Assembly: GCA_051362555.1 (NCBI GenBank)
Contig: CM120649.1
Location: forward strand, 310,001 to 374,000
Length of the DNA stretch: 64,000 nt
Reading direction: 5' to 3'
Origin: Lingula anatina
Taxonomy: Eukaryota > Animalia > Brachiopoda
This document shows positions 1,803 to 49,114 of this stretch, one piece after another. A program made the translations under genes and the position numbers. The notes below the pieces were generated by a model. It saw nothing but the letters and a program-made list of their open reading frames with translations. It was not told where the DNA came from and ran no database searches. Position 1 is the stretch's first letter. The number at the start of each line of letters is the position of its first letter.

Positions 1803-3524
1803 CTAAATGTGTGAGATATTTTCCGTCAAACTGGCAGCACCAATGTCATTTTCATAAATGCTATCAACAACGTAACAGTAAGAACCGTCTCTCTGTCCCA
1901 GGGGGATGCCGTGGTCTTTTGAACCGATGTACGAGTAATCATACGTTTTATTTTCTAAATCACCACAGGAAACATGGGGCTCATGCTCGATTTGATTATG
2001 ATATCTTTGACCTGGAACTTCTCCTTGTTCCTGACCTTTACCTTCACCTTGACCTCTAAGTAAAGACTGGTAATTATGAGCGGTATGATCAGAGGGAAGA
2101 ATAGACTCATACTGGTTGGAATAACTATGTACATGTATTTGTCCTTGGCCTCGGTCCTGATCACAAATTCTAATTTTACCTTCATTCTGACTTTTTAGTA
2201 AAGACTGGTAATCAACTTCACCTTCACTGCGACCTTCACCTTCAGTTTGACCTTCACCGCGTGCTCTGAGCAAAGCCTGGTAGTCATTATTACACACTTG
2301 GTTGTGAGAGGCGGTTACTTCATGTAGCTCAAGATCATTTTGAAACTGTCCTTTCTGATCTTCATAGTTTCCGTGACCTTGACCTCCACATCCAGATTCG
2401 TCACGACCTTTATTTTTACCATGGACTATGAGTTCTGCCTTTCGACACCCGCAACATTTGAAAATGCAGAAAATGCCAACAAAAAGAAGCACCAAAAAAC
2501 AAAACCCAGCTATTATGGGGACCACAATTAATAAATGTGGATCTAGAGAAATTATGCCGGGTTCATTTGTTGCTGATGCTGTGGTGGGGTTAGTATTACT
2601 TGATGTGACGTCAGCTATTCTGATTGATCTAATATTGGAAACCGTGGTGTGGGAAATGTTGATATCAGTCGTTCGGTCCATCATGAGACTGGCTGTTTCA
2701 TGAGAAGTGCAGTTATCTGGCATTATGCTACATTTGGATAAGGGGTTTGCCCTACACTCTAACGCAATCCGAAAACCCAGAGAGAAAGACGTTGCTAGCT
2801 TGACGCTACCATTTACGTATAACCACTGCAGAACGCACGGGCACTGTCTCGCGGCAACGATAGGATTCATATCGAGAAAAACATATCGCAGATTGGGCAA
2901 AATTTTAAAAGTACAGTAGTCAATTTCAGCAATTTGATTTTCTCGAAGATCCAGACCCCGCAAACTTGTCCCGATGTGAACAAATGCTGTAGGTGAGACG
3001 GTCGCAATCTCATTGCCATTCAGCGTCACAACCGCCAGTGCCCTCCAAGCACCCTGGAAATCCCGTGCTTGTAAGGAGCGGATTTGATTAAAACTAACAT
3101 GCAATTCAATCAGAGAAGACAACTCGGGAAGTAGTGATTCTCCGGGTATATTTGTCAGTTCATTATAGTCTAGATAGAGGTATTCTAGAGTCTCTAAGTT
3201 AGAGAATGCATTCTTTTCAATCGTCCGTATTCGGTTATGTCGAAGTTGTAGACGTGACACGTTTAGTAGTCGCATGTTTTGGAATGCGTTTGCGGGGAGG
3301 ATGGTTAGGCTGTTATTATCCAGAGATAGCCTGCTAACTGTACCTTGTGTTTCCGAACTAAAAATAACAGGTATGGTAGTTAAGCCTAGGTTTATGCAGT
3401 CTACATCGGTCACAGGTGGGTAGTTGTTGACATCGCAACTACACACGCTTGTCACTGATGAACAAACATTCCCACAGGTTTCCTGAATCAGTATGAGAAA
3501 CAACAGGAACGATTTTATCTTCAT
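1803..3524 (-). CDS. Leucine-rich-repeat single-pass transmembrane receptor-like protein (573 aa, no intron in the CDS)
   Basis: Signal peptide MKIKSFLLFLILIQETCG; LRRNT (CSSVTSVCSC...VDC); about 7 LxxLxLxxNxL repeats (e.g. LEYLYLDYNEL, LIELHVSFNQI, LRGLDLRENQI); LRRCT (NPI...CPCVLQWL); Ser/Thr stalk; TM LLIVVPIIAGFCFLVLLFVGIFCIF; ~215-aa cytoplasmic tail with no TIR domain. A likely 5'UTR acceptor (ttccttttcag) precedes 3574. Confidence 0.9.
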   Translation of the reverse strand: MKIKSFLLFLILIQETCGNVCSSVTSVCSCDVNNYPPVTDVDCINLGLTTIPVIFSSETQGTVSRLSLDNNSLTILPANAFQNMRLLNVSRLQLRHNRIRTIEKNAFSNLETLEYLYLDYNELTNIPGESLLPELSSLIELHVSFNQIRSLQARDFQGAWRALAVVTLNGNEIATVSPTAFVHIGTSLRGLDLRENQIAEIDYCTFKILPNLRYVFLDMNPIVAARQCPCVLQWLYVNGSVKLATSFSLGFRIALECRANPLSKCSIMPDNCTSHETASLMMDRTTDINISHTTVSNIRSIRIADVTSSNTNPTTASATNEPGIISLDPHLLIVVPIIAGFCFLVLLFVGIFCIFKCCGCRKAELIVHGKNKGRDESGCGGQGHGNYEDQKGQFQNDLELHEVTASHNQVCNNDYQALLRARGEGQTEGEGRSEGEVDYQSLLKSQNEGKIRICDQDRGQGQIHVHSYSNQYESILPSDHTAHNYQSLLRGQGEGKGQEQGEVPGQRYHNQIEHEPHVSCGDLENKTYDYSYIGSKDHGIPLGQRDGSYCYVVDSIYENDIGAASLTENISHI

Positions 3525-4589
3525 CCTTCAGGCTTGTATCTTGGATGCAAGTGTTTTTGTTTTTTTCACGATAGCTGAAAAGGAAATGAAGTAATTCTTA
3601 TTATGAAAGACAATGGGCAGTTTATAAAGTTCTCTGGCTGTTGAAATGATCTAACCTGTCCAGGTTAAATAAGATTTAGCTGCACTACCAACGCCGTAAA
3701 AGAGAAATACATTTATAGCAATCAATGCGACCCGCAACCTGAACCTTAAAGGCCTTTTAGACTCAGAGACTGTTATGTATTAAGTTTAAATCTCATTAGT
3801 TACATTAATTAATGAGATTTAAACCAAAATTAAAGATAACACCTCTGTAAAGGTCATATAAAGTTGCGTTTAATGAATAGTTTGATTGGAATTTGTATTT
3901 AATACTATGCACTTTACATTTTTCTACATAGTATAAATATCAAGTATAATGTGAAACAAAACAACAAATGTCTGTGTTGTCACATGCATAGTCACCAGTA
4001 GGCCAACGTAGTTCAACATCTTTAGTAGACAAACCGATTAACTATTAACGCTCTTCACGTCGTTGGATGCCAATTTCACTTACACACTGTAGCCTACAAT
4101 CCTCTCTTGGATATACAAAGACTTACGTTTAACTTATTCTTGCAGAGTTGGTATTCTTATAGACAAACTGCAATGTTCTTCCTCTCTCTCCTGTCGTTTA
4201 GCTTGGAGTCTGTGTACGCAATACATTTTAACAAAATCCACTTCACTGTCACGTGCCCCTATTCCGAAACAAAGACGTGAGACCTCACCGCATCCGGGAA
4301 CTATTTTTAGCGCAAACAAGGAAATCTGAGTACAACTTTACAAAATAAAGGCTACAAGAAGTATGTGCTTATACAGTGTATGTAAACAGCAAAGTGAAGT
4401 AGTTTAACGTGACAGTCAGAAATAAATACTCACGATTTTATTTTTTTTTTCAGTTGAGTCATGACTCGCAAGCATCTAAAAAGACGCAGTGGGAACTAGA
4501 CCACCTCATTCTCGCGGGAAGCAGGTGCATGGGTTTGTGTCAATTTAGATAAAATAATGCTTATCAATGACGTGGTTCAATAAGTGGAA

Positions 4590-6522: not shown

Positions 6523-8749
6523 TCTAAAAGTTTAAAAATACGGAGGTTATTGAAAAGGATGATTTAAGGATTAATTAAGTCTGCAAGATCAAACGGAAAA
6601 CTCCCCTCTTTCATATTCTTGTGCATATTTCTTACCATAAAAATAGCAGTCCCCATTTTTGTTACAAGGGACATTTTTAATGCACTTCCCTGTCCAGGCT
6701 TGGCACAGCGTGCGGCCGTCAGGGTCGTGACAGTCCAGTGACGTGGTACAGGGGACCTGAATTAATAACAGTAAATTTCCAATCTGTGCCTTAACATTTT
6801 CAGCTCACTGGTTCCTACGACTAAGACTATTATGGTTCAGAAATCTACGCTGCCAACCCTCTACAAGGAATCAGCTGAGTGAAGACGTCAACTACGTGAG
6901 CACATTCTCGATGGACAGTGCAGAAAAGTGAACAAAACTAGTCTGAGAATTAACTGAATATCTGTAAAAATTATTCCATGACCCTGATAGAGTACAGTGT
7001 ATACACAGCATACAATGAACACGATGAAAACTATGCTTAGTGAAATACAATGTCAAATATTTGCAATCGTTAAATAAAGTGAGTACAGTGGAATAAGCGA
7101 TTATTTACAGCAGTATTACACTTTTCGGGAAGTATTAAAGATACATGCACTAAACGGACCCAAAACTACAGCTGGGGACCTGATAATTAACATAAAGCAG
7201 CAGAGGAGTTTCAATACAGAACTACCAATAAAAGTTACGTGCTATAATAAGGAGTTAAACTAATACAATCTTAGAATGTGCTTAATTAATAAGCCAAATT
7301 ATAAAACTTACCGCAATTGCTGAAAAGATACAGGTAACAAAAACGAAAATTAACAAAGCAGTATTTGCCATTTTAGCGGAGGGACCGATCTACCCAGTAA
7401 GCGCTGTTGAAAACTGTAGCTCAGCGTTAAATGCGAACTTCGTTTATAGGCCTTCTGCTCACATTTATAGACAATGTTCTAATACAATGACATAAACTCG
7501 ATTTGGAAGTTATTTCCCCTCATTTGCATTGACAAGTCTGGAAACATTAAAGTAATAAAAAATAATAATAATGTCTATTATGTACATGCTGGTGTTCAAC
7601 GAAGTCTATAATTTCTATCAGGGCATTTCCTGGCTATCCGGAGCTTAAGGACAAGGACGGATCCAGGATGATTGCTTATGTTACAGGACTGGAGGGGGGC
7701 ATGGATAAAAATGATTGCCGCAGCTTGTTTTTTTTTCCCGGCAAATAAACCAGAAAACAAGGGCAAATTAATGTTTTAGCATGTTAAAACATGTTGGGTA
7801 CAGGGATGAAAAAAACTAACTTGATTTTTTCTTGTTTCACTGAGGAGGAAGATACAGAAAGTGGTTCCTCAGAGATTAATTGAGGGACACGTGTCAGGTG
7901 CAACATTCTTCTCCGCCATGACAATGCTGGAAGGCGACATCAGTAGATAGGCTATATATATTATAAGAGCCGTAGTAACATAAAACGGCACCGACATATG
8001 TTCAGGCAGCCGTAGAAGAGAGATGATCGAGTTTCTATGGACCTCCTTCTATAAAACTCAAGGTGATCAAGTGCATTACCCAAATCCTGCTTGTTGGATA
8101 TTTTACTCATATAGCCTATTAATTACATTATATTGTATTAGGCCTATAGCCTATAGGGCCTACGTCCCTATGTGGTTTCCAAACGCGTGTTGGGGTCTTC
8201 ATGCCTAACTGTAGGTTAATTATTAATGTTGCTTTTCATTTCATGTGACCCCCCCCCCCCCAAAATCAGCTAGAAAGGTGGATTAATATAGATAGGGCCT
8301 ATAACGCTGTATAGGCCTATAAACACAGATTGCACCTTTTATAAACTCATAACCCCCCTCCTTAAATATTCAAATCATATTTGATGTACAAGCTGTTGTT
8401 AAAGTTTGATTATGTGAGAAAATGGGCTCACCGACCCAAAGTATTTGTGTTCAATAAAGTCGTCTTTAAGCTGAAAGGACCAAGCAGAAAAAGTGATTAG
8501 AACTATGGCCAAGAGAACACTTGTTGGTGTAGGTTCGAAAGCGAGGCTTGTATTTGGATTTTTCACTAGAATGACTGCTTGGAGAGTATTTTGATTAATT
8601 TTCGTATTGTAACATTTTAAACGATATGGTGTAAATGGTGTTATGCATGTTTATACGATAATTAATAATGTACTTGAAAATATTGTTTAGAAATAAAATG
8701 AATAGACTTTTAGTATTTTAATTATAAGAAATGATATAAGATAGGTATA

Positions 8750-8864: not shown

Positions 8865-9680
8865 ATGAGAATGCAGATCACGTCAGCAGGTAATATTCCC
8901 TATCTTTTATATATAGTGGTTTTACGCATATTTTACTATTTAAGAAAATACTTGGTTTTAAATACAGCGGTAGAATTGTGCGTCTGTTCATTGTGTGCTG
9001 AGTCACTGTCAGGTTCTAGATTTATTTCTAATAATGTGAGTGAAATGCTTGAATTTTAGTATTTATACAGTGATGAAACCCATGACAATACGTTCAACAT
9101 TTTTCACTTTAATCCATTTGTTTTTATTTTGAACAGAAATATATATGGTGTATTTTTTTTCTTGGCAACAACATCATTGAAGATGGTTTTGAAATTATAA
9201 TATTGCTGAGATTTAGAGCTCAAACACAACATATGTGGATGTATAGTACTTCTGTTTAAAATATTTTAAATAATACTCTACTGAATGTTAATTCTAGCTG
9301 GCATACTTGCCCTGCTGGAGGAACCAGAGCCTGAAGTTAAGGTAGGTGGATACAACATGCAGCGATCTCATGTGTGTGTATGGTCATGTGTGTGTGTGTG
9401 TATGCTCATCATCATGTGTGTGTGTGTATGCTCATGTGTGTGTGTGTGTGTATGCTCGTGTGTGTATGTGTGTGTGTGTGTGTATGCTCATGTGTGTGTG
9501 TTATAGTGACTGGCCAGTAAAGACCAGGCTTGATAGCTCAGTGGTAGAGCACTCGTATGGTTAGCAAGCATCCCAGAATTGGTCCTCAGTCAAGTCAGGC
9601 ATATTCCCCCCAAAAAGGCATTACAATGGTGGCAGCGGTGTACAGAGTGGTGGACTCCATCCTTTGGCTTTTGAGAGAGT

Positions 9681-9715
<35 letters not shown>

Positions 9716-12700
9716 CTGGAGTTACTGGCCAGGGTAGACCTCTGCTCCAAAGTTTAGTGGTAGAGCACTTCCATGATAAGCAAGTCTGTGAGGTTCAATT
9801 CTGGTCTGGTCAGGTATTTTCTTAAAAAAAATTACTGGTTGGCTTTATAAAAGTGTGCAAGTTGAGGAGATGAGAGCAAAGATAAAAATTCAAGAGCTCC
9901 CATATCACATTTTGTGCTACTGAGCATGTGTGTTACAGTGTAAGTGAATGTATGATTATGTCTTATTTTATACATTTATTTGATTGTAATCACTGATGAC
10001 ACACACAAGCACACTCATTTATGATTGAATGAATAAAGTGAAAATTAAAGTTAAATAAAAGAATAATAATATAATGTGTAAATGAAGATAGATAAATTAA
10101 TACCTTGCTAATTAATGAACCATACACCATTTGTGACTGCTCATTACCTTTTCTGTATATTTTAATATTAATTTTATGTTAAAGCACTGTAAACAAAGAC
10201 TGAAATGGTTATTTTAGATACAATTATCTCTTAATCAAGTATTTACTCTCGTATGATATTTCAGATTGATATGGCTTTATGCATGTAACCTGGGATTATT
10301 TACTTTGCAGGTTTTCTCATTGAATAAACTGAACACAGTTGTAGATGAATTCTGGGCAGAAATCTCTGAGGCAGTTGACAAGATGTAAGTGAATATGCTT
10401 GTTTGTTATTGTGCTTTGTCTGCTGGACCATCTTAAGTTGGTCATGAAACACTAATATCTCTGGCCCCATTCAGAATAGGGGACTAACTAATCCGAGGGT
10501 CAAATATGGCCAACCCACTTGAATACTTCCCCACAGGATATCTTTTCAGTGTCTGTCAGTGGATTAGACGGCAAGCTTGGTAGTGGGTCACCATATTTGA
10601 CCCTTGGACTAGTTAGTCCCCTATTCTGAATGGGGCCTTAGGCAGACTTGTCTAACTTTTTGCCTGCCAGCCAAATTAAGTTGAAACTCTTGAAATCGCA
10701 TGGTACATCCCCTCATAAGATTTACAAAAAAATACTAGTACCAGTAAGTTAAATAACTATAAATGTTTCTTATTCTGTATGTGAAACTGAAAACAGCAAG
10801 TATTTCCTCTGTCACGTTATGTGCTCAAAGTTACAGTTACTGTTTCAAGGGTGTAAGTAACTCCAAACAAAGTGTTTGTTTGAGGAAACAGCTTTTTGTA
10901 AAGTAAAAAATGCTAATTAAATAAAGTGTAAGTTTTCAGCTCCCAAACTCTGGAATAAATATATAAATATTGGCTTTAAGGGGCAATTTTTTCACTTGGA
11001 TGATTGAATAGCTAAAATGAAATGAAGTTTACATATATGTATGTGTTGATACATGTGTTGTTATCTTACAGTGAGATGCTGTATGAAGATACCACCTTCA
11101 AGCACAGAGAACTGGCAGCTCTGGTGGCTTCCAAGGTAACGTACACTATACATAGGAACAATTATCTTGGTTAAATTATGTTTTTTACTTTTTTGTTTTG
11201 TTTTCCTGCCTACGTGTTCTGTAGATGTTAAAAAAGTTAAATCAGTTGCTATATGCTTTTGTTACAAACTGCAAAATTACTCACATGAGATATTTCCATG
11301 GACAGTCAGGTATTTTCATCGTGTCCCATAGCCGAGAGTATTTGGTGCTGCCGAGGTTTTTCCAGTATTAGCACTCTTTATGAAGATTTTCTCAAAACAG
11401 GGGAGATAGTTGTCTCTTATTTTTCTCACCAATTATCTCTTCTATTTCAGACAAAGCTCTGCAACCTTTACTTTATCTTTTACAGAAAGTGTAAAGAATA
11501 TATTTTTATTTAGGGGTACTATCACCTTGGCGCCTTTGAAGAGTCAGTCATGTACATGCTCCTCAAATGTAAAATATTTCATAATTATGTTTCTATTTTA
11601 GGTGTACTACCATCTTGGGGCCTTTGAGGAGTCCGTCACCTATGCCCTGGGCGCTGGCTCTCTCTTTGATGTCAACGACACTTCGGAGTATGTTGAGACT
11701 ATTATTGGTAGGTAAAGCTTATTGATTAAAAAAAAAAAAATAAATACTAAGGTAAATAGATAATTAAATGGATAGATAAATGAATAGATATTTAATATAT
11801 GCATCATACTGGTTATGGATTTGTGTGTGAAAAGAAACTGGCAAGACTTGGGCATATAAGTATTTAACATCAGGATAACAGAGACAATGAAAATGACAAG
11901 GTGCCCGCAGATGCTTGACATTCTCAGCAATAAAATTCAATAAGGTAGACATTTTAGAAAATGCAGTCCAATTTCCCTTCTATTTCTTCAGCAAAATGCA
12001 TTGATAGTTACACTAGAATGAGAGTCCACAATGCAGAGAGCGATGATGTTGACCAGAAACCCATGGATTCCCGTCTGGAGGCAGTGGTGAACCGAATGTT
12101 CCAAAGATGTTTTGATGACAAGCAGTTCAAACAGGTTAATGTCTCATATCTTCAGATTAATTTATTGTCATCTAGAAATTCTTTTCAGTGTAGTAAATTG
12201 ATTAGATTATGAGTTTTAAAATGTGTAATTTGTCTGTTAATAAATGAAAAACAGTTGAATATAATGGTTAAATTTCTTTCTCTGGTACTGTGGATTATTG
12301 ATGATAGTGATAAAAACTTGCAGATTTTAAATACACAAATTATTGTTGTTCATGATGTGGAACACTCAGAAATTAATGTGCTATACTTTGCCAATTTCAG
12401 GCTGTAGGCATTGCCTTAGAGACCAGGAGAATTGACATCTTTGAGAAGGCCATTCTGCAACCTGTAAGTACCTGTCTATAGAAATGTGGAGGGGTTTTCA
12501 ACAAAGAAAATCATAGTCTCATCACACCAGTGGGGCAAACATTTTGTGCAATACTTGCATAACTATTTGATGCCATTTTGGTTACTGATGTTTTCTTTTC
12601 ACTTTTGAAATTTACCTAAAAGTAATGTGTGAAGCAGAGAAAATGGTTGGGAAGGAATTAAAAAATGTGCAAATATGACACAAAATGTGAGCATCACTCA

Positions 12701-23899: not shown

Positions 23900-24127
23900 T
23901 ATTCAGAACATCGACAGCATTAACAACCAAAGTTGATTCATGGACTAACAGATCTGCAGATCAAATATGGATGACTCACTTGAAAGCTTGCCACATAATC
24001 CCCTAATAGCCTCTGATCATTCCCCGTAGATATTACGCAGCAAACTTTTAACTGGGTCTGCCGTATTTGATACATAGATCTGTAAGTCCACGAATCAACT
24101 TTGGTTCTGAATGCTGTCAGTGTTCAA
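23900..24127. mobile_element. MITE family A, related copy 2
   Basis: Inverted arms (AACCAAAGTTGATTCATGGACTAACAGATCT.. / ..AGATCTGTAAGTCCACGAATCAACTTTGGTT); shares GGACTAAC..TCAAATATGG..CACTTGAA with the 10463 copy. Confidence 0.7.
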
Positions 24128-31390: not shown

Positions 31391-33885
31391 TTATTCCCTC
31401 AGACTCATGGATCTGTGTCTCACTCTGTGCTCCGCAGCAAGTGTCCTGCCGTAGTGGTAATGATGATGATGACGGTGAGTTTTCTTACACGTCAAAATAC
31501 GAATAAAAGCCCTCCGAAATGAAGTATTAAACATGGTATAGATGATGGGGTTGGCCAGTGAGGCCACGTAACCCAGCCAAACAAAGACGGTAAACGTGTC
31601 CTCTGTTGTTTCTGCCATGCATGGAGTACAGGTGACAGATAAGACATTCAAGACAAAAAAAGGTGCCCACAAGATCACAAAAATGGCAAAGATGATCCCA
31701 AGCACCTTGGATGCCTTCTTCTCGTTGCTTGCTCTGTGACGAGACAGTTTGTTATTCCTTCGTAGGCTTTCCAGGGATATCTTTTTGTCCACAGTTTTAG
31801 CTGCTGCACAACTGAGACGACAGCGGTGCACGAAATCAAGACCCGTCTGACAAAGCGTCTGTACAGGTTCACAACAGGTGCCAAATTTTTTGGTTGGCAC
31901 ATTAGGAGGCTGTGGTTCATCAGGGTGTATGACAACCCCGTTACTGGAACTACTGTGGTTAATATCGCTGTGAGCCTGGAACACAACGGAGGAATTCCTG
32001 CTGGCGTTGTTGATTGTGGTGGTGCCACCTACCTGCAGATGGGTGACAGCCTCCACAGGACCAGGAGGCATCAATAAGTTCTGATTCTCCTTTGGCACTG
32101 TAACTGTGGGAGTGGTATTGTCTTGTCCATTGTTGATTTGATTTTCTGAAACTCTCGTTTTGTAATCCCGAAATCTGGTAGCAAGGATTTCCCAAAATCT
32201 AGATTTCTTTTTATTTGTGTTTGGTTTTGAAAGCCTTGTTGAATGATCCGAGCTTTCCTCGTGGTCAGAACGCAGTATGTCTGTCTCTTGCACAGAGTTT
32301 GGAGCGCTGCCATTAGTCAGAAAAGAATGGGCGTGGCCGTTACTAGGTGGGTCTGAAGGAACATAGCCATTGCTTGGGGGATCAGATGGAACATACCCAT
32401 TGCTAGGGGGATCCCTTTGCTCCACAAAGCAATTGTTTGGAAACTCTTGTCTTAAAACTTTAATTCCAGAATAAATATTAGAAGATGAAGAAACATGAAG
32501 ATTGTCACTAGCTCCTGAGTGAACAGATGTGGTGGAAGCGTGAGAGCTGGTAGATTGAACAGTGTTTTGTGAAGTATTTATAACATCTTCAATTGGAAAA
32601 CTAGGACTTTTCAACTCCAGGTTACTGTTTGGATTTATACCATCATGAATATGGTGATTTTCCTGGTTATTATTACTGAAGGAATGGCAGTCTTGTTCAT
32701 AGTTAATGGCAGACCTGTGCTGCTTTTTATTTTGTTCAGCATTGTAATTACCAGGTAATTGTCTCTCTTTGTTATTGTTATCATACAGATGATGTTCATC
32801 ATATTCCATACTCCCATCATCGTCATTAGCAGCATTATATTCCTTGCATTCTGCACTAGAGATTGAACTACTTCTACTCCCAGGTGGTGAATTTATATGC
32901 AGGAAAGGTCCCGTTGTTGAGTCAGGGCGACAAAATGGCTGCCTTTCCTCTGGATTTTTGCTGTCGTTTTGACTCCAGTTACTACCTTGGTGCGATGACG
33001 ACAGTCTCTCTATGGTATCAGCTACCATGGATGAAAACGAGTGAGCCTTAATGTCAACGAGATCCTCTTTTGGTTTCAGCTCCAGAGGGGTTCCCATAGT
33101 AACCAACAGGGATAGGAAGGCATTTTTTGTCAAATTTTGTAAAGGGTTCATGCTAACAGTCTGAGAGCGCGGCCTTGGTGGTGTATCACTTGATGTCCCT
33201 CTTGATGTGAGCATAGTGCAAGAAGAGGCCCTGTTAATAGCACCAGTTTCCAAATCTTCCACTGAAAACTTTCGACTGTTGCCGCCATCACTGCTTATAC
33301 TGCTAACACTGCTGCTAGTTGATTGGTGAGAAATTCGCTGTGTGCGAGCTTCTGATGATTTTTGTTTCTCAATAGAGATAGGTTCCTCCTGTATCCCAGA
33401 CAATTGACACTGCATTATAGTCGCCGTCTGACCAACATTTGATCCTATAGATGAGCGGAAACTGTCACTTTTACTGTGCCTCATTTTAGAGTTGTGCATG
33501 TGTTTCTGATTGCGATACAAAATCAGCAGCGTCAAAACGTATGTCACAATCATGATAAGAAGAGGGATGTAAAAGGCAAAGAGAGATCCATAAATAATGA
33601 AATTAGTCATGGTAGGAACACAGACACCATTATTGAAAACATTTGAATAATCCGTGAATCCTGAGATAGCTATCGGGCTCGATATCGCCAGTGAAATAAT
33701 CCAGACACTGCAGATTTTCAGTGCCACCATTTTCTTGGTCTTGTTGCGTCCATATTTCATTGGATAGCGGAGAGTGAAGTAGCGATCCATGGACATGGTA
33801 CACATATGCCATATGGAGGCTGTGCACATGCATACGTCTGTCATAGCCCAGATGACACAGAACGCTGGATCCAGGGGAAAGTAGC
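31391..33885 (-). CDS. HTR2: 5-HT2 receptor coding exon 2 (ECL1 to C-terminus, 2495 nt)
   Basis: Acceptor ttttctattttccag|GC TAC TTT CCC gives (G)[16 protein letters not shown]... The frame stays open to TAA at 31393-31391. Confidence 0.93.
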
Positions 33886-36800
33886 CTGGAAAATAGAAAA
33901 AAAAATATTACGCATTTAAAAATGTTTGCTCTATTTTATCTTATAATGTCAAATAATAATAAATTATAGTGGAATCTGCTAATTACCTTATGATACCTTA
34001 CAGTTATTTACAAAAAAATAAAAAAAAAATATTATTTTATCTTTGGAATTGTGTGAAACATTGACTAACAAGGATATTTGTGCAACTTTTATAGATTTTA
34101 CTGCAGTCCCAGTGTATCCAAAGTAAGCAGAATCTGCGGTGTTATTAAGTACAATTGCATCTCTAAGATGAGTCGCATTGAGATTAGCGAGATAGAAAGT
34201 GATCTTGAACTCAGTTTTTTTTTTGTTCTTTTTATCCAGAAATTGAGAGACGATAACTTGGCAGACACAAGTAATATGCAAGACCCCAAGTCTTAGCATG
34301 TGTCAGAAGCTGAAGTGTCCTTACCTGTGCCTTGTACATTTCACCTATAGGAAATGTCAAGGTTTAATGTAATTTACTGCATCAACAGTTTCAACACTTA
34401 ATAAAAGCCTTAAGTGATTATGTGCAATGTTCTGATGTGGAGTATGGCCTAGCAAGTGTATGTTATAAGGTAGAGTCTATTCTGCACTGTAGTTCACGTA
34501 GTTGATGTTATTTATTGCTTCAACAGTTTCTGCGTGTTACTGCGACATTGTGAAGTGTTTCAGTTTGCATTTTTATGGCAAGGTAATTGTAATGTTCTTA
34601 GACAGGTAGACTTAATCAGACTTCAGTCTGTTTGCACTAAGAGATAGTTTTGATGCACTCAAAAAACCTGAAGGACGTTTTGATTAATTAGATAAAAGAC
34701 AAGGAATATCTCGTAAGTGCTGTGCACATGTAATGATGAATGCGTGAGTCTGGTTTTGATTGCTTTCTTTTTTTTTCTGATGGTTTACAGTTTTACAAGC
34801 ATGACAGCAGACGTGGCTTAGAGAAAGCCAAAGCTAATATTTTTCACTTTCTATCCGAGTTTAAAAATTTGCCATTTTTTTTTAAATTTTTCAAAAAAAA
34901 AAAGTTTTGTGATCAGTAGTGAGTAATGATCATTACTGAATTCATCAGTCGCTAAATTAGTCAGTGAATAAAACCAATCAGTGACTGAGTTGATCACTTT
35001 GTTATTGAACCAACCATTCACTAAGTCTGTCAAATACTCAGTTATACAAGTGATATCTTGACATGCCCCCCCCCCCCTCTCCCCGACCCCTCCACTGCCC
35101 TTTGGGTGTTTACACATATAATTCCATGTAATCCTGGAATGGTGTGGAAGCTATGTATTGTAGACATGAAGACAGCATACCTCTCATAGCAGTAACATTG
35201 CTGGCATGGTTGAAGATACTCACCTTCACTGGAGTGAGGTGGAATGCAGTTTGACTGACCAGGACATGTGTGTATGGGGGCTGGTCCTGATGCTGGGGGG
35301 GTGCTTTACATATATGGTCAGTGGGGGAGAGAGGGGGGTCAGTTGTGTGGAAAAGCAGGGAGGTAGAGGATTAGGAAGAAGAGGAAAAGGGGGGAGACAG
35401 AATGAATGAGGTTGTATAATGTGTGTGTTTGTATATGTGTGAAGAAGAGAATGGATGAATAAAGTTTTACAAGAGAGAGAGAAAAAGAGAGAGAGAGAGA
35501 GAGAGAAAGAAAGCAGCATTTGTGTTTCAGTCAAATATACACCATCAATAAACTGACATTGTCTTCAGCATTCAATTTTAGCAATTATACAGTTGCAAGA
35601 GAGAGAAGATGCATTTTTTTCTGTTCTATTTTTCTTCTTCTTCTGCATTTGTTTGCACAATAGATGAACCGTAAAATCCTCTTGTTTCAGCCTAAGAAAT
35701 GGAGGACATCAAGCATATTACAGAAATTTGACAAGATTATGGGAACAACCTTTTGCCTTTTCAATAACACCACAAATTTATCATAAAACCTGCTATTTTG
35801 GAATTGCTGCAGCCAGTAATGGCAGATGTACTGACTGAGGCAGAGAAATTGGATTACAATAAGTAGGCAGTCTAATGCAGTTTTCACATTACCAGCTCAC
35901 TGTTAGCCTCCCTATTTAGATCTAAATGTCTTGTCTAGTTTCCGCTAACACAAATATCATGCTGGTTTTAGAAACCTGATAAGGGTTAAAAAGCAATTTT
36001 AGAATTTTCACAGCAATTATTTGACTGTGCCCACTTATAACACCATATACTTCTTTCAATTTAGATTTGAAAAACATCGAGCAATTCCAGGTAAATGAAA
36101 TATTTCCCCTGCCGCTATCAGAAATTTGATAATTATAAGAAAAGACGTTTTTAATTTTCAGCGCAGTTTCACATCTGGCAATTTTTGTGCTGTGTTTATT
36201 TGCTCTTTCAGGAGTAGATTGGCTATGCTGGAGATGGTCGTCTAAGTGATTTATTGTAATATATAGCAAGCAGTTTGAGGATGAATTTGTGCTAAAACAG
36301 GTGTGTGGCCCCTCAAGGCTGGACAGCCATGGGGATTTATATGTGGGAGTAACCTGTGGAACTTGTTTAATTGGTGGCATCGTAAATAAAGGCATTACCT
36401 GAAAAATGTGGGCAATTTTCCAAAATATTTTCCAAACATTTTTCTCATGTGGTTGTCCTCATTTATGTTGCAATTACTGTAGCAGAATGTATTGATATAG
36501 AAAGTAACATGTACATAAAGAGTAAATTCCTTTTGATGAGAACTCCATTGTTAAATAGGTATAGGTGTAGGATTGCATGTGCTTGCCTTGGTGTGCGTTT
36601 GCATGCATATTGAGAATGCCTCATCAGATGGGCGTATCATAGATTCATTTTGTAATTAATAAAATTGAATGATATTTTTATCTCATAATGCATGTATCTG
36701 TCAGGAAAATAAATGAACTGTGTCCGTCCACTGAGGTTTTAACTGGCATGATTAAAATCCCCAGTGAACTGGAAACCTGCATTTTGTAGCAAGATCATTT

Positions 36801-45500: not shown

Positions 45501-46528
45501 AAGTTGTTAAGTGGTTTGCAAGTCAGACATTTGTGTTTTCATTTAGGCTGGGCTTTTGTCTCCATTGCAAGAATGACTAGGTCTTCTTGGAGGGGGGGGG
45601 GGGGGGGGGTTGATAGATTGCCTGGTGCTTAATTGGTGACAGAGATATATCTTTTTAGTGTGATGATTATTGTTTTGTGAAGTGAAGTTATCAAATGTAT
45701 TTTTGTTCATTATTGCTGACATAGTATATTTAAAAATGAGTTACAGAAAATGACATCACTGGATAAAGATTAATGCAGAGAGAGAAAGAGAATACAAGCA
45801 TGTTTTTAAATGGTGATGTTAGAGGGCATTCCCAGATATTTAGATCAATCTTACTAGATCGACCTAACTCCCTGGGGGTTCACGCTAAATTGCAGTCAGC
45901 CAACCGCGCACGGAAGTTAATTACCCCCTTACAGCTTGTAGTAGGCGGGACGGACATTTAAGCTGGATTATCTGACAGTAATCTAGTGAGACTCCCCACG
46001 GGGATAGATCGATCTAAAATCTATGGGAATGTGCCCTTAGAAACCCAGAAACAATTATTTGAGTATTGAACAAAAATCTCTGTTTTTGAAACTGGGCTTA
46101 AGAAAACTGGACTTTCTGGATATGCGCCAAACCTTAACCATGATTATCATACAGTACTCACCATACAGAAGAACTATCATCCCTGGCGGCATCACCAAAA
46201 TAGCCACCAACAGGTCTGCAATTGCCAGCGACATCAGGAAATAGTTGGTCATATTTTGTAGTCTCCGTTCTCGTGACACTGCCATGCACACCAGTATATT
46301 CCCCAAAGCAGTACACAGAATGACGACGCACAGAGCCAGATATCCCCACTGGTACTCTCCTGATCCCGCCGTAGCCACCGGTGTTGTGGCATTGTGGTCT
46401 GAAATGTCCCCGTGACTTTGTCCTTTGTTGTAGTAGAAGTCCAATGGCTGAACTGTTGTTGTGATGGACTCATCTTCCCTTGTGGTCGTCTGTCGCTCCA
46501 ATGTAGCATAGATAGCTGTAAATGCCAT
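31391..46528 (-). CDS. HTR2: 5-hydroxytryptamine (serotonin) receptor, 5-HT2 type, class A GPCR; join(46528-46162, 33885-31391), about 953 aa
   Basis: TM1-2: [42 protein letters not shown]3 has the amine-binding Asp and DRY ([21 protein letters not shown]). TM5 [17 protein letters not shown]; [12 protein letters not shown]...LWAPFF; [18 protein letters not shown]. These are 5-HT2 family signatures. The phase-1 intron 33886-46161 has gtgagt...ttttccag boundaries. Confidence 0.93.
40025..40079. repeat. Poly(A) tract, 55 nt
   Basis: Direct read. Confidence 0.9.
41811..42063. repeat. AGGTCA-rich minisatellite (higher-order unit about 57 bp)
   Basis: CAGCACTAAGGTCACTGCTAAGGTCACACCAC repeated 4 times. 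Confidence 0.9.
42515..42598. repeat. (GA)n/(TA)n compound microsatellite
   Basis: Direct read. Confidence 0.85.
42950..43060. repeat. Two copies of a tandem unit of about 58 bp
   Basis: ACAAACATTACACAGCCTA(G/T)GGGTGGATGTGTAGAGCTGTGTTCACACTCAT occurs twice. Confidence 0.9.
43249..43370. repeat. Two copies of a tandem unit of about 67 bp
   Basis: TGATGACAGGATAGCAGA.GTGTAGAA.TGTACCTTC.TATACAAGACATTTAT occurs twice. Confidence 0.9.
45824..46036 (+). mobile_element. MITE family B, copy 1
   Basis: TIRs GGGCATTCCCAGATATTTAGATC / GATCTAAAATCTATGGGAATGTGCCC; internal GATCGACCTAACTCCCTGGGGGTTCACGCTAAATTGC. Confidence 0.75.
46162..46528 (-). CDS. HTR2: 5-HT2 receptor coding exon 1 (N-terminus, TM1, TM2)
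   Basis: First in-frame ATG is at 46528 (ggaATGg), with an upstream in-frame TGA at 46666-46664. Donor G|gtgagt at 46162/46161. The exon probably begins at 47193 after acceptor tttcatcttttcag. Confidence 0.88.
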
Positions 46529-47679
46529 TCCGCTGCCAACACTGACTCCATTCAAAACCACTTCAGATTTGTCCACTTCACTGGTGAGAACAGTTTTCAC
46601 TGCTTTGTGGCAGCTTCTGGTACCATTTAAAATTGTTTCAAAATTTTCACTGAACCAGTGAATTCAATAGACTTTCCTGGCTACAGGTGTGTTCTTTGTA
46701 ACCCTCTCCTTATGTATAAGCACATCAAAGGTCAATTAAAGTTCTGAACACTAACTGTGTTTTCCGAGACCTGCTTTTGGGAAGACCTTTACTGTAAACA
46801 TTAATTTACAACTGGTGTATTTCTTTTGAAGTTGAAATCAAAAACACCTAACTTTGTAGCATATCGGACCGTTTTCATAGGCTGAATAGGATTGTTGTTC
46901 AGAAGGCGCTTCAGGGACTGCTCCAATATCTTTCCAGCCTCCTGTCTGCCTTGGGAAGTATGCAGAAAAGAAGAGATGTTTTTATGTAACCAGTTGCTAA
47001 TAATAGATCAATTAGTTGTAAAATTCTGCTCAGCTGAAACCCTTTGCTTTGATCAAATTTTAGTGAAAATCTTTTTCTTGGAATGAGTGTCTCCTCAGCC
47101 TTGTTTGATGTCTTGTTTGATGTTTCTTTTATCTTTTTATTTTCCTCAGTTTGAAATGATGATTAACAGTCCTCTTCTGTTTTCTTAATGTACCTGAAAA
47201 GATGAAAAATTACGTAAATCCTGTCTGAAAATGTGTTGTGTAATGTACCGATGGTTAATTTTTTATCCCCTCTAATATTTTTTTCTATCTTAGAAGGTAT
47301 TTGAAACCCCCTTTTGCTCTGGCAATAAAATAGTGACTGTCATGAACATATAACCTGTGTTACATAACTCTCTTATCTTTCATCTTAACTTACAGTGACA
47401 GAATATCATTTGGGAAAGTGTTTAGTCATTCATATTCAAAGGAAGGAACTAGGGAGTAATTATATATTTTTTAATTACCCTCAGTTGCCATTAAAATTCA
47501 CAACCATCAGTTTTTAGTCAGTATAATTAAAATGGGAAAATAATCCAATATATTTTTATTTATCTCTGTGCAAAAATGAATTCATTTAAGCTATATATAG
47601 GGAGTTTAAAGGGCAGCAACCTTATGTTGTACTTTTATCCAACACTGGGAAGTTCAGGGAACCCTATGTTGTAATCTTA

Positions 47680-48624: not shown

Positions 48625-48923
48625 GTAAAAAGACTGGCTTTAATCGGCCGGTCACTATGAGAAAGACCTCCTGTGATGGCCAAGGGCTGGAGTTGTCATC
48701 TTGCCTCATTGAGCAAGGATATAATTTTTGAAAAAATCAAATATTTCCACCATGTCCCAGGCTACACTTCTATGATTTTACATCTCTGTGATTTTCTCAA
48801 TTTAAATAACTAGGAAAATGATATATTTATAGTTACAGAGGAATAATGAATTTGTCATGAATACACACAAAGTGGCAAATTTTAATTTTTTTGCTTTACC
48901 AATCTTTGATGACTGACCATATC

Positions 48924-49114
48924 TAAGAGCGCATTCAGAACTGCTGACTAACAGATCCGCGGATCGAATATGGCCAAACCACTTGAATGCATGTTGCGTA
49001 ATCTCTGTGGGGGAATCCATTCAGTGTCTAATTGGGAATCAGTTGGCAAGCTTTTTAGTGGGTCACCATATTTGATCCCCAGATCTATTGGTCAGATGTT
49101 CTGAATGCACTTTA
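48924..49114. mobile_element. MITE family A, related copy 3
   Basis: GCATTCAGAA..GACTAACAGATC..GATCGAATATGGCCAAACCACTTGAAT...GGCAAGCTT..TAGTGGGTCACCATATTTGA..TTCTGAATGC, flanked by TAA/TTA. Confidence 0.78.

What the first reader, a model, noticed from the sequence alone, without database searches (positions are those of the whole stretch)
9502..9836. Miniature LTR retroelement with tRNA-like (Pol III promoter) LTRs, tRNA-Leu PBS and G-tract PPT in PSMD1 intron 2
Seen: two ~120-bp direct repeats (..ACTGGCCAG..AGACC..AGTGGTAGAGCACT..AGCAAG..GTCAGG.AT..TTAC) carrying tRNA A-box and B-box-like sequence. TGGTGGCAGCGGTG starts 1 nt after the TTACA end of repeat 1, and GAGAGAGT plus G35 lies directly before repeat 2. 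Established: TGGTGGCAGCGGTG is complementary to the CCA-containing 3' end of tRNA-Leu(AAG) and is a common gypsy PBS. TRIMs with tRNA-like LTRs have been named Helenus (TRIMp3). Inference: this is an old SINE/LTR hybrid element that would otherwise be misread as two SINEs or pseudo-tRNAs, and it may be an undescribed family in this taxon. No clean TSD is visible.
Basis: partly seen in the sequence, partly recalled or inferred. Interest (0 to 1): 0.7.

Follow-up and report, generated by a model that had tools for sequence, protein, structure and literature searches.

The report
Decayed Helenus mini-retrotransposon in Lingula intron
This is an old, decayed copy of Helenus, a tiny jumping element with tRNA-like end repeats already described in 2024 in the lamp shell Lingula, the animal this DNA most likely comes from, so it is ordinary, although it may belong to a subfamily not yet catalogued.

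Summary
Two direct repeats (9502-9625, 9717-9836; 79 of 119 aligned letters identical) flank a primer-binding site with 14 of 14 letters complementary to tRNA-Leu(AAG) and a purine tract ending in G35, in coding intron 2 of PSMD1/RPN2. The host is Lingula (a neighbouring ORF is 97% identical to an L. anatina protein). Kojima 2024 (PMC10886601) lists three Helenus families in L. anatina; they are the only Helenus families in its supplement with this primer site, and they match this copy in size and, by eye, in sequence. Public DNA contigs show other loci, one with LTR end, primer site, ~55-nt interior, purine tract and next LTR start in order, so the two-SINE reading fails. No target-site duplication can be read: a microsatellite lies left, and another repeat overlaps the right end. 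This copy and the other loci share words absent from the published consensus set, so an uncatalogued older subfamily is plausible (about 55%). Pol III transcription and a Gypsy helper are inferred, not shown. Verdict: real, already known, low interest.

The parts
9502..9625 (+). 5' LTR (124 nt), starts TA (published Lingula families start TG), ends TTACA
   Evidence: by-eye match to Helenus_LAn LTRs
9527..9597 (+). tRNA-like segment in the 5' LTR: intact A box 9534-9544, decayed B box, 8-bp acceptor-like stem; not a working tRNA gene
   Evidence: Rfam RF00005 26.7 bits, below cut-off 29; ARAGORN none; fold z -0.30
9627..9640 (+). primer-binding site, 14 nt complementary to the CCA end of tRNA-Leu(AAG)
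   Evidence: tRNA 3' ends printed in Figs S2/S3 of PMC10886601
9626..9716 (+). non-coding interior (91 nt; 56 nt without the G run)
   Evidence: published Lingula interiors are 58-60 nt
9673..9715 (+). polypurine tract, with the G run likely expanded locally to G35 (9681-9715)
   Evidence: another locus has a short purine tract directly before TGTA
9717..9836 (+). 3' LTR (120 nt), starts TG, B box 9792-9802, T4 run 9817-9820, ends TTACT
9371..9501 (.). compound (TG)n microsatellite abutting the 5' end; obscures the left target site
9834..9907 (.). 5'-cut fragment of a different multi-copy repeat that overlaps the last 3 nt of the 3' LTR; obscures the CA end and the right target site
   Evidence: 15, 15, 16 and 15 contigs in the four runs share a variant at 9877 and run on unlike the LTR before 9834
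9342..10310 (+). host intron: coding intron 2 of PSMD1/RPN2; the element lies in the gene's sense direction

Best explanation
This is an old, decayed copy of Helenus, a non-coding miniature LTR retrotransposon with tRNA-derived LTRs already described in Lingula anatina, which was likely copied by RNA polymerase III from the tRNA-type promoter in its first LTR, likely reverse-transcribed from a tRNA-Leu primer by a Gypsy helper's enzymes, and is now likely inactive. Shown: two LTRs, A box in LTR1 and B box in LTR2, a 14-nt PBS, a purine tract, other genomic loci with the same parts, and presence on both haplotypes of one sequenced run. Inferred: an ancestral copy was transcribed from the start of the tRNA-like segment, through the T run that follows it in the 5' LTR, to the T run in the 3' LTR, so that the tRNA-like ~80 nt form the repeated end needed for strand transfer; a Gypsy helper supplied RT, RNase H and integrase; after insertion the LTRs drifted apart, largely by CpG decay, the G run grew, and both flanks were overwritten. 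It probably (about 55%) belongs to an older subfamily that is not one of the three published consensus sequences.
For: Host Lingula: 97% identity over 100% of a 572-aa query to an L. anatina protein. Helenus-1/2/3_LAn have LTRs of 132/127/132 nt and interiors of 59/60/58 nt; here 124/120 nt and 56 nt without the G run. The 12-letter PBS word occurs 4 times in the whole supplement: the three Lingula families and one goldfish Gypsy. By eye: first 15 interior letters identical to families 1 and 2; GTGGACTC at the same offset as in family 2; LTR1 start 13 of 16 with family 2 (all three changes G to A); LTR1 end 15 of 17 with family 3; LTR2 9792-9822 29 of 34 columns with family 1; of 10 contigs laid in X1, 8 were shown and 4 of these run on unlike the window (other loci); all 4 contigs laid in X5 do so. 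X1 record 6 carries LTR end, PBS, ~55-nt interior, purine tract and TGTA in order; X1 record 5 and X5 record 12 carry an LTR with a full B box. Age: K2P 0.44-0.46 between the LTRs, 1 and 0 CpG left in them, against 5 other letters in 134 nt between the two X1 haplotypes.
Against: No TSD can be read, and neither LTR has both TG and CA ends. The tRNA match is below Rfam's cut-off, and only E 0.25 window-wide; LTR2 has no tRNA-model match and folds worse than shuffles (z +1.30). The copy fits no single published family along its whole length, and that comparison is by eye only. The other loci are short contig pieces (30-47 aligned letters), only one of which shows the full order of parts. No Lingula Gypsy helper or Lingula tRNA-Leu was examined; no genome was held. 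Pol III use by Helenus has not been shown by experiment (PMC10886601).
Confidence: 0.9

Rival explanations
1. It is simply an old copy of one of the three published families (most likely Helenus-2_LAn), and the apparent mosaic is decay plus by-eye bias; no separate subfamily exists. This rival concerns only the subfamily question inside the best explanation.
For: LTR start, PBS, GTGGACTC offset and interior length fit family 2; many differences are G-to-A or C-to-T at CpG sites; K2P 0.45 between the LTRs leaves much room for noise.
Against: Independent loci share words with this copy (GGGTAGAC, GTCAGGTATTT, a 30-of-30 match at 9524-9553; only 4 differences over 9622-9657), while five such words, four of them from this element, have 0 hits in the published set (its 70-letter line breaks can hide hits). 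The middle and 3' LTR parts fit families 1 and 3 better than family 2.
Confidence: 0.4
2. The two LTRs come from different insertions (remnant of a tandem array, or gene conversion between subfamilies), so their 34% difference overstates the age and explains the missing TSD.
For: No TSD. One X5 contig holds two LTR-like pieces about 364 nt apart in register, near two LTR-plus-interior units (record 9). Tandem arrays are reported for zebrafish Helenus.
Against: Both LTRs have lost nearly all CpG, both X1 haplotypes carry the element, and both flanks are independently disturbed, which suffices to hide a TSD.
Confidence: 0.12
3. Two neighbouring tRNA-derived SINEs or pseudo-tRNAs with a chance spacer.
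For: Each repeat has a tRNA-like head and an A-rich end, and no TSD encloses the pair.
Against: A 14-nt PBS 1 nt after repeat 1 and a purine tract before repeat 2; the same spacer at another locus; each repeat has 25 nt before the tRNA-like part that match published LTR starts.
Confidence: 0.03

Closest known systems
Helenus-1_LAn, Helenus-2_LAn, Helenus-3_LAn (Lingula anatina; Kojima 2024, PMC10886601, Data S1 and Table S1)
   Same: Same host genus; same tRNA-Leu(AAG) PBS 1 nt after the LTR; ~125-nt LTR with a central tRNA-like segment followed by a T run; ~56-60-nt interior ending in a purine tract; shared sequence in all segments (by eye).
   Different: This copy is decayed (LTRs 66% identical, G35 expansion, broken ends, no TSD). 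It resembles family 2 at the LTR start and interior and families 1 and 3 in the middle and 3' LTR; other loci share its diagnostic words.
Other animal Helenus (bivalves, fish LTR-11_DR, chalcid wasps, nemerteans)
   Same: TRIM layout with tRNA-derived LTRs; Gypsy-type PBS.
   Different: None has this 12-letter PBS word in Data S1; a wasp family, Helenus-2_TheEle, has a shorter match to the same tRNA.
Cassandra and Ajax (5S-derived TRIMp3)
   Same: Small-RNA promoter inside the LTR; tandem arrays and read-through of LTRs reported for Cassandra (PMC7215508, passages).
   Different: 5S rRNA-derived, not tRNA-derived; plants and nemerteans.
tRNA-derived SINE2
   Same: A and B box head.
   Different: SINEs have no PBS, PPT or paired LTRs, and use LINE machinery (PMC10886601).

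Membership tests
Helenus (tRNA-type TRIMp3) | Under 1 kb, non-coding, two LTRs | tested here: met
   335 nt; 79 of 119 columns identical, far above shuffles
Helenus (tRNA-type TRIMp3) | tRNA-derived segment with A and B boxes inside the LTR | tested here: met
   Rfam tRNA 26.7 bits in LTR1; exact A box in LTR1, B box with 1 mismatch in LTR2; each LTR keeps only one good box; a full B box is seen at another locus
Helenus (tRNA-type TRIMp3) | PBS directly after the 5' LTR, complementary to a tRNA 3' end | tested here: met
   14 of 14 to tRNA-Leu-AAG of Apis as printed in Fig S2; Lingula's own tRNA not examined
Helenus (tRNA-type TRIMp3) | PPT directly before the 3' LTR | tested here: met
   9673-9715, 42 of 43 purines, then one C; short tract before TGTA at another locus
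Helenus (tRNA-type TRIMp3) | TG...CA LTR ends | tested here: inconclusive
   LTR1 TA...CA, LTR2 TG...CT; inner ends are right, outer ends altered; another locus shows TACA and TGTA at its inner ends
Helenus (tRNA-type TRIMp3) | 4-bp TSD (animal Helenus) | tested here: inconclusive
   GTGT against GGTT, but the left flank is a microsatellite and the right end overlaps another repeat; no empty allele was seen
Helenus (tRNA-type TRIMp3) | Dispersed copies with the same order of parts | tested here: met
   4 of 8 shown X1 contigs and 4 of 4 X5 contigs are other loci; 1 shows the full order
Helenus (tRNA-type TRIMp3) | Pol III transcription and mobilisation by a Gypsy helper | not testable with these tools
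   no genome held; also unproven for the group
Helenus-1/2/3_LAn (one published family) | High full-length identity to one consensus (the paper clusters at 75% and counts copies at 90%) | tested here: inconclusive
   by-eye comparison: different segments fit different families; about 43 of 60 interior letters with family 2; no computed alignment
tRNA-derived SINE2 | Single tRNA head at the 5' end, LINE-like tail, no PBS or PPT | tested here: not met
   25 nt of LTR sequence precede the tRNA-like part; PBS and PPT spacer recur at another locus
Functional tRNA gene | Cloverleaf with intact T arm, found by tRNA finders | tested here: not met
   ARAGORN 0 genes; Rfam below cut-off; no B box in LTR1

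The most novel reading that the evidence does not exclude
This copy marks a fourth, older Lingula Helenus subfamily that joins the LTR start and interior of family 2 with the middle and 3' LTR of families 1 and 3, a sign that Pol III-type TRIMs recombine between subfamilies; and the conserved T run after the tRNA-like segment acts as a leaky terminator, read through in the 5' LTR and used in the 3' LTR, which would set the RNA ends of all Helenus.
Probability: 0.35. Interest if true: 0.3.

Novelty: already known. Interest (0 to 1): 0.13.

Why it matters
Mostly for annotation: such copies are easily miscalled as pseudo-tRNAs or SINE pairs, and the published Lingula Helenus set ('at least three families') may be incomplete. 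No function for this copy in PSMD1 is indicated. The one open question it touches, whether Helenus is really transcribed by Pol III and how it passes the T run in its first LTR, is better tested on young copies than on this one.

Tried and rejected
Own genome: none held, so no copy count, TSD survey, solo-LTR count or helper search. Second copy inside the window: none; best non-pair tile scores 65-69; the weak hit at 48630-48658 (E 0.25) runs into an AT-rich repeat and was rejected. Expression: no RNA holder listed; laying about 6% of two RNA runs on 9502-9680 gave 0 reads (X15, no test) and 2 reads under 90% alike (X12): no evidence either way. Empty allele: none seen; X2 showed no contig of this locus among those listed, and X7's contig starts at 9824 with 27 unlaid letters, unresolved; X5 showed no contig of this locus over 9502-9680 but carries LTR2 unchanged, so that hole is not read as absence. 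Horizontal transfer from a brachiopod into another animal: considered when the Lingula match appeared, dropped once the host proved to be Lingula. Two of five PSMD1 exon pieces gave no Pfam match. Kalendar 2008 on Cassandra was not held. Earlier scan notes: five bacterial or phage tRNA notes sharing 4-5 of 144 words, unrelated; none by words.

Full report
Observation. The sequence at 9502-9836 is as described. LTR1 (9502-9625) and LTR2 (9717-9836) align with 79 of 119 ungapped columns identical, K2P 0.44-0.46. The local score is 110 against 46 +/- 5.7, highest 73, in 2000 shuffles, and each repeat's best non-self match among 3194 window tiles is the other repeat. The Rfam tRNA model hits 9527-9597 at 26.7 bits, under the cut-off of 29 (E 0.0028 locally; E 0.25 window-wide). 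ARAGORN finds no gene. LTR1 keeps an exact A box but no B box better than 3 mismatches; LTR2 keeps a B box with 1 mismatch and an A box with 2 (recalled consensus patterns). Neither segment folds better than shuffles (z -0.30 and +1.30), though LTR1 keeps an 8-bp acceptor-like stem. The PBS lies at 9627-9640; its first 13 letters match exactly once in the window. The purine tract ends in G35 at 9681-9715.

Host and gene. A single-exon ORF at 1806-3521 (minus strand) is 97% identical over its full length to a protein named as Lingula anatina; the next hit is 31% over a quarter of the length. The window is therefore Lingula, most likely L. anatina. The host gene is PSMD1/RPN2: coding exons at 8865-8889, 9298-9341 and from 10311; two pieces match RPN2_N below the curated cut-off, one matches PC_rep above it, and two of five give nothing; one piece matches human PSMD1 at E ~2e-33. 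The element lies in coding intron 2, in the sense direction.

What is known. I read the whole main text of Kojima 2024 (PMC10886601) and parts 1, 7, 10 and 11 of the 11 parts of its supplement, plus two word searches over all of it. It defines Helenus as TRIMs with tRNA-derived LTRs and states that L. anatina has at least three families, with LTRs of 132, 127 and 132 nt, interiors of 59, 60 and 58 nt and 4-bp TSDs. The 12-letter PBS word occurs four times in the supplement: the three Lingula interiors and a goldfish Gypsy. Fig S2 prints the tRNA-Leu-AAG 3' end of Apis, to which the window's PBS is complementary over 14 letters. By eye, the first 15 interior letters equal families 1 and 2; GTGGACTC sits at the same offset as in family 2 (about 43 of 60 interior letters match it); the LTR1 start matches family 2 at 13 of 16; GAGCACTCG matches families 1 and 3; the LTR1 end matches family 3 at 15 of 17; LTR2 9792-9822 matches family 1 at 29 of 34 columns. 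These counts are not from a computed alignment.

Other copies. No genome was held. The run search listed 21 runs, 10 holding the stretch or part of it, all labelled organism A, from 4 studies. On 9502-9680 at 80% likeness, X1 gave 10 contigs and X5 gave 4. Of the 8 X1 contigs shown, 4 fit this locus and 4 run on into unlike sequence; all 4 X5 contigs run on unlike. X1 record 6 matches 9622-9657 with 4 differences, is preceded by an LTR-like end and is followed by a short purine tract and TGTA, giving an interior of about 55 nt: the LTR-PBS-interior-PPT-LTR order at an independent locus, without a long G run. X1 record 5 and X5 record 12, probably one locus in two animals, carry an LTR with a full B box. 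X5 record 9 has two LTR-like pieces about 364 nt apart in register, possibly a tandem array. These are lower bounds from short, filtered contigs and give no copy number.

Age and flanks. Two X1 contigs cover the interior (0 and 3 differences) and two cover LTR2's 3' half (0, and 5 differences with 3 gap letters in 134 nt), so both haplotypes carry the element; X5, from another study, carries LTR2 unchanged. The LTRs differ roughly ten times more than these haplotypes and hold 1 and 0 CpG, so the insertion is likely old; no rate was available to date it. X7 is unresolved and X2 uninformative. The TSD cannot be read: the four letters are GTGT and GGTT, the left flank is a 131-nt compound microsatellite, and a different repeat, seen in 15-16 contigs per run, begins at 9834 and overlaps the last three letters of LTR2.

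How it likely worked. Shown: the parts and their recurrence. From established LTR-retrotransposon biology as summarised in the paper: the tRNA primes minus-strand synthesis at the PBS, the PPT primes the plus strand, and integrase inserts the copy. Inferred by the paper: animal Helenus depend on Gypsy helpers and use the tRNA-like part as a Pol III promoter, without experimental proof. My inference: the three published Lingula LTRs and LTR2 here (9817-9820) have a T4-5 run just after the tRNA-like segment, a Pol III terminator signal by recalled knowledge. A usable template must read through it in the 5' LTR and can end at it in the 3' LTR. The paper uses 'terminat-' only for Cassandra (2 occurrences); read-through of LTRs is presumed for Cassandra arrays (PMC7215508, passages). 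This copy, with one broken box in each LTR and altered outer ends, is likely inactive.

Subfamily. The copy fits no single published family throughout, and other loci share its words: a 30-of-30 match at 9524-9553, GGGTAGAC, GTCAGGTATTT, and the interior segment after the PBS. Five words, four taken from this element, have no hit in the supplement, with the caveat of line breaks. I put a separate older subfamily at about 55%, against a decayed copy of a published family at about 40%.

Literature. Searches for Helenus + TRIM + tRNA + LTR (5 papers, 4 listed), TRIMp3 (6 papers, 1 relevant) and Helenus + retrotransposon from 2024 (5 papers, 4 listed) showed no further work on Lingula Helenus in the held library; of these I saw passages of PMC12859917, which only mention the group, and listings of the rest. 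Passages of PMC13121700 report 31.7% repeats and recent LTR expansions in L. anatina (the paper came from the listing); its supplements were not read. Repbase and Dfam could not be searched and may hold further Lingula families.

Verdict. Real feature, right interpretation, already known in this animal. Interest 0.13.

Noticed in passing
window 9834-9907: Fragment of an unidentified multi-copy repeat (15-16 contigs per run share a variant at 9877); no second copy in the window; other copies extend further on the 5' side.
   Followed up: partly
window 10463-10637: MITE-like element with 47-nt inverted ends, 96% complementary, in the next PSMD1 intron; relatives at 48919-49107 (69%) and 23942-24016.
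   Followed up: partly
window 9817-9820: T4 run right after the tRNA-like segment, also present in the three published Lingula LTRs; terminator-like, and would have to be read through in a 5' LTR.
   Followed up: partly
X5 record 9 (828-nt contig): Two LTR-like pieces about 364 nt apart in register; possibly a Helenus tandem array in Lingula.
   Followed up: no
window 1803-3527 (-): Single-exon leucine-rich-repeat membrane protein, 574 aa, 97% identical to an L. anatina protein.
   Followed up: partly
window 31391-33907 (-) and 46055-46663 (-): Two exons of a rhodopsin-family GPCR (7tm_1) with a very long loop; resembles amine receptors by recall.
   Followed up: partly
window 6564-8050 (-): Short cysteine-rich exon pieces that look like a LIM/CSRP gene by recall, head to head with PSMD1; two pieces gave no Pfam match in the frames tried.
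   Followed up: no
window 9893-10262: High allelic variation in the intron among runs: many substitutions and indels of up to 9 nt.
   Followed up: no
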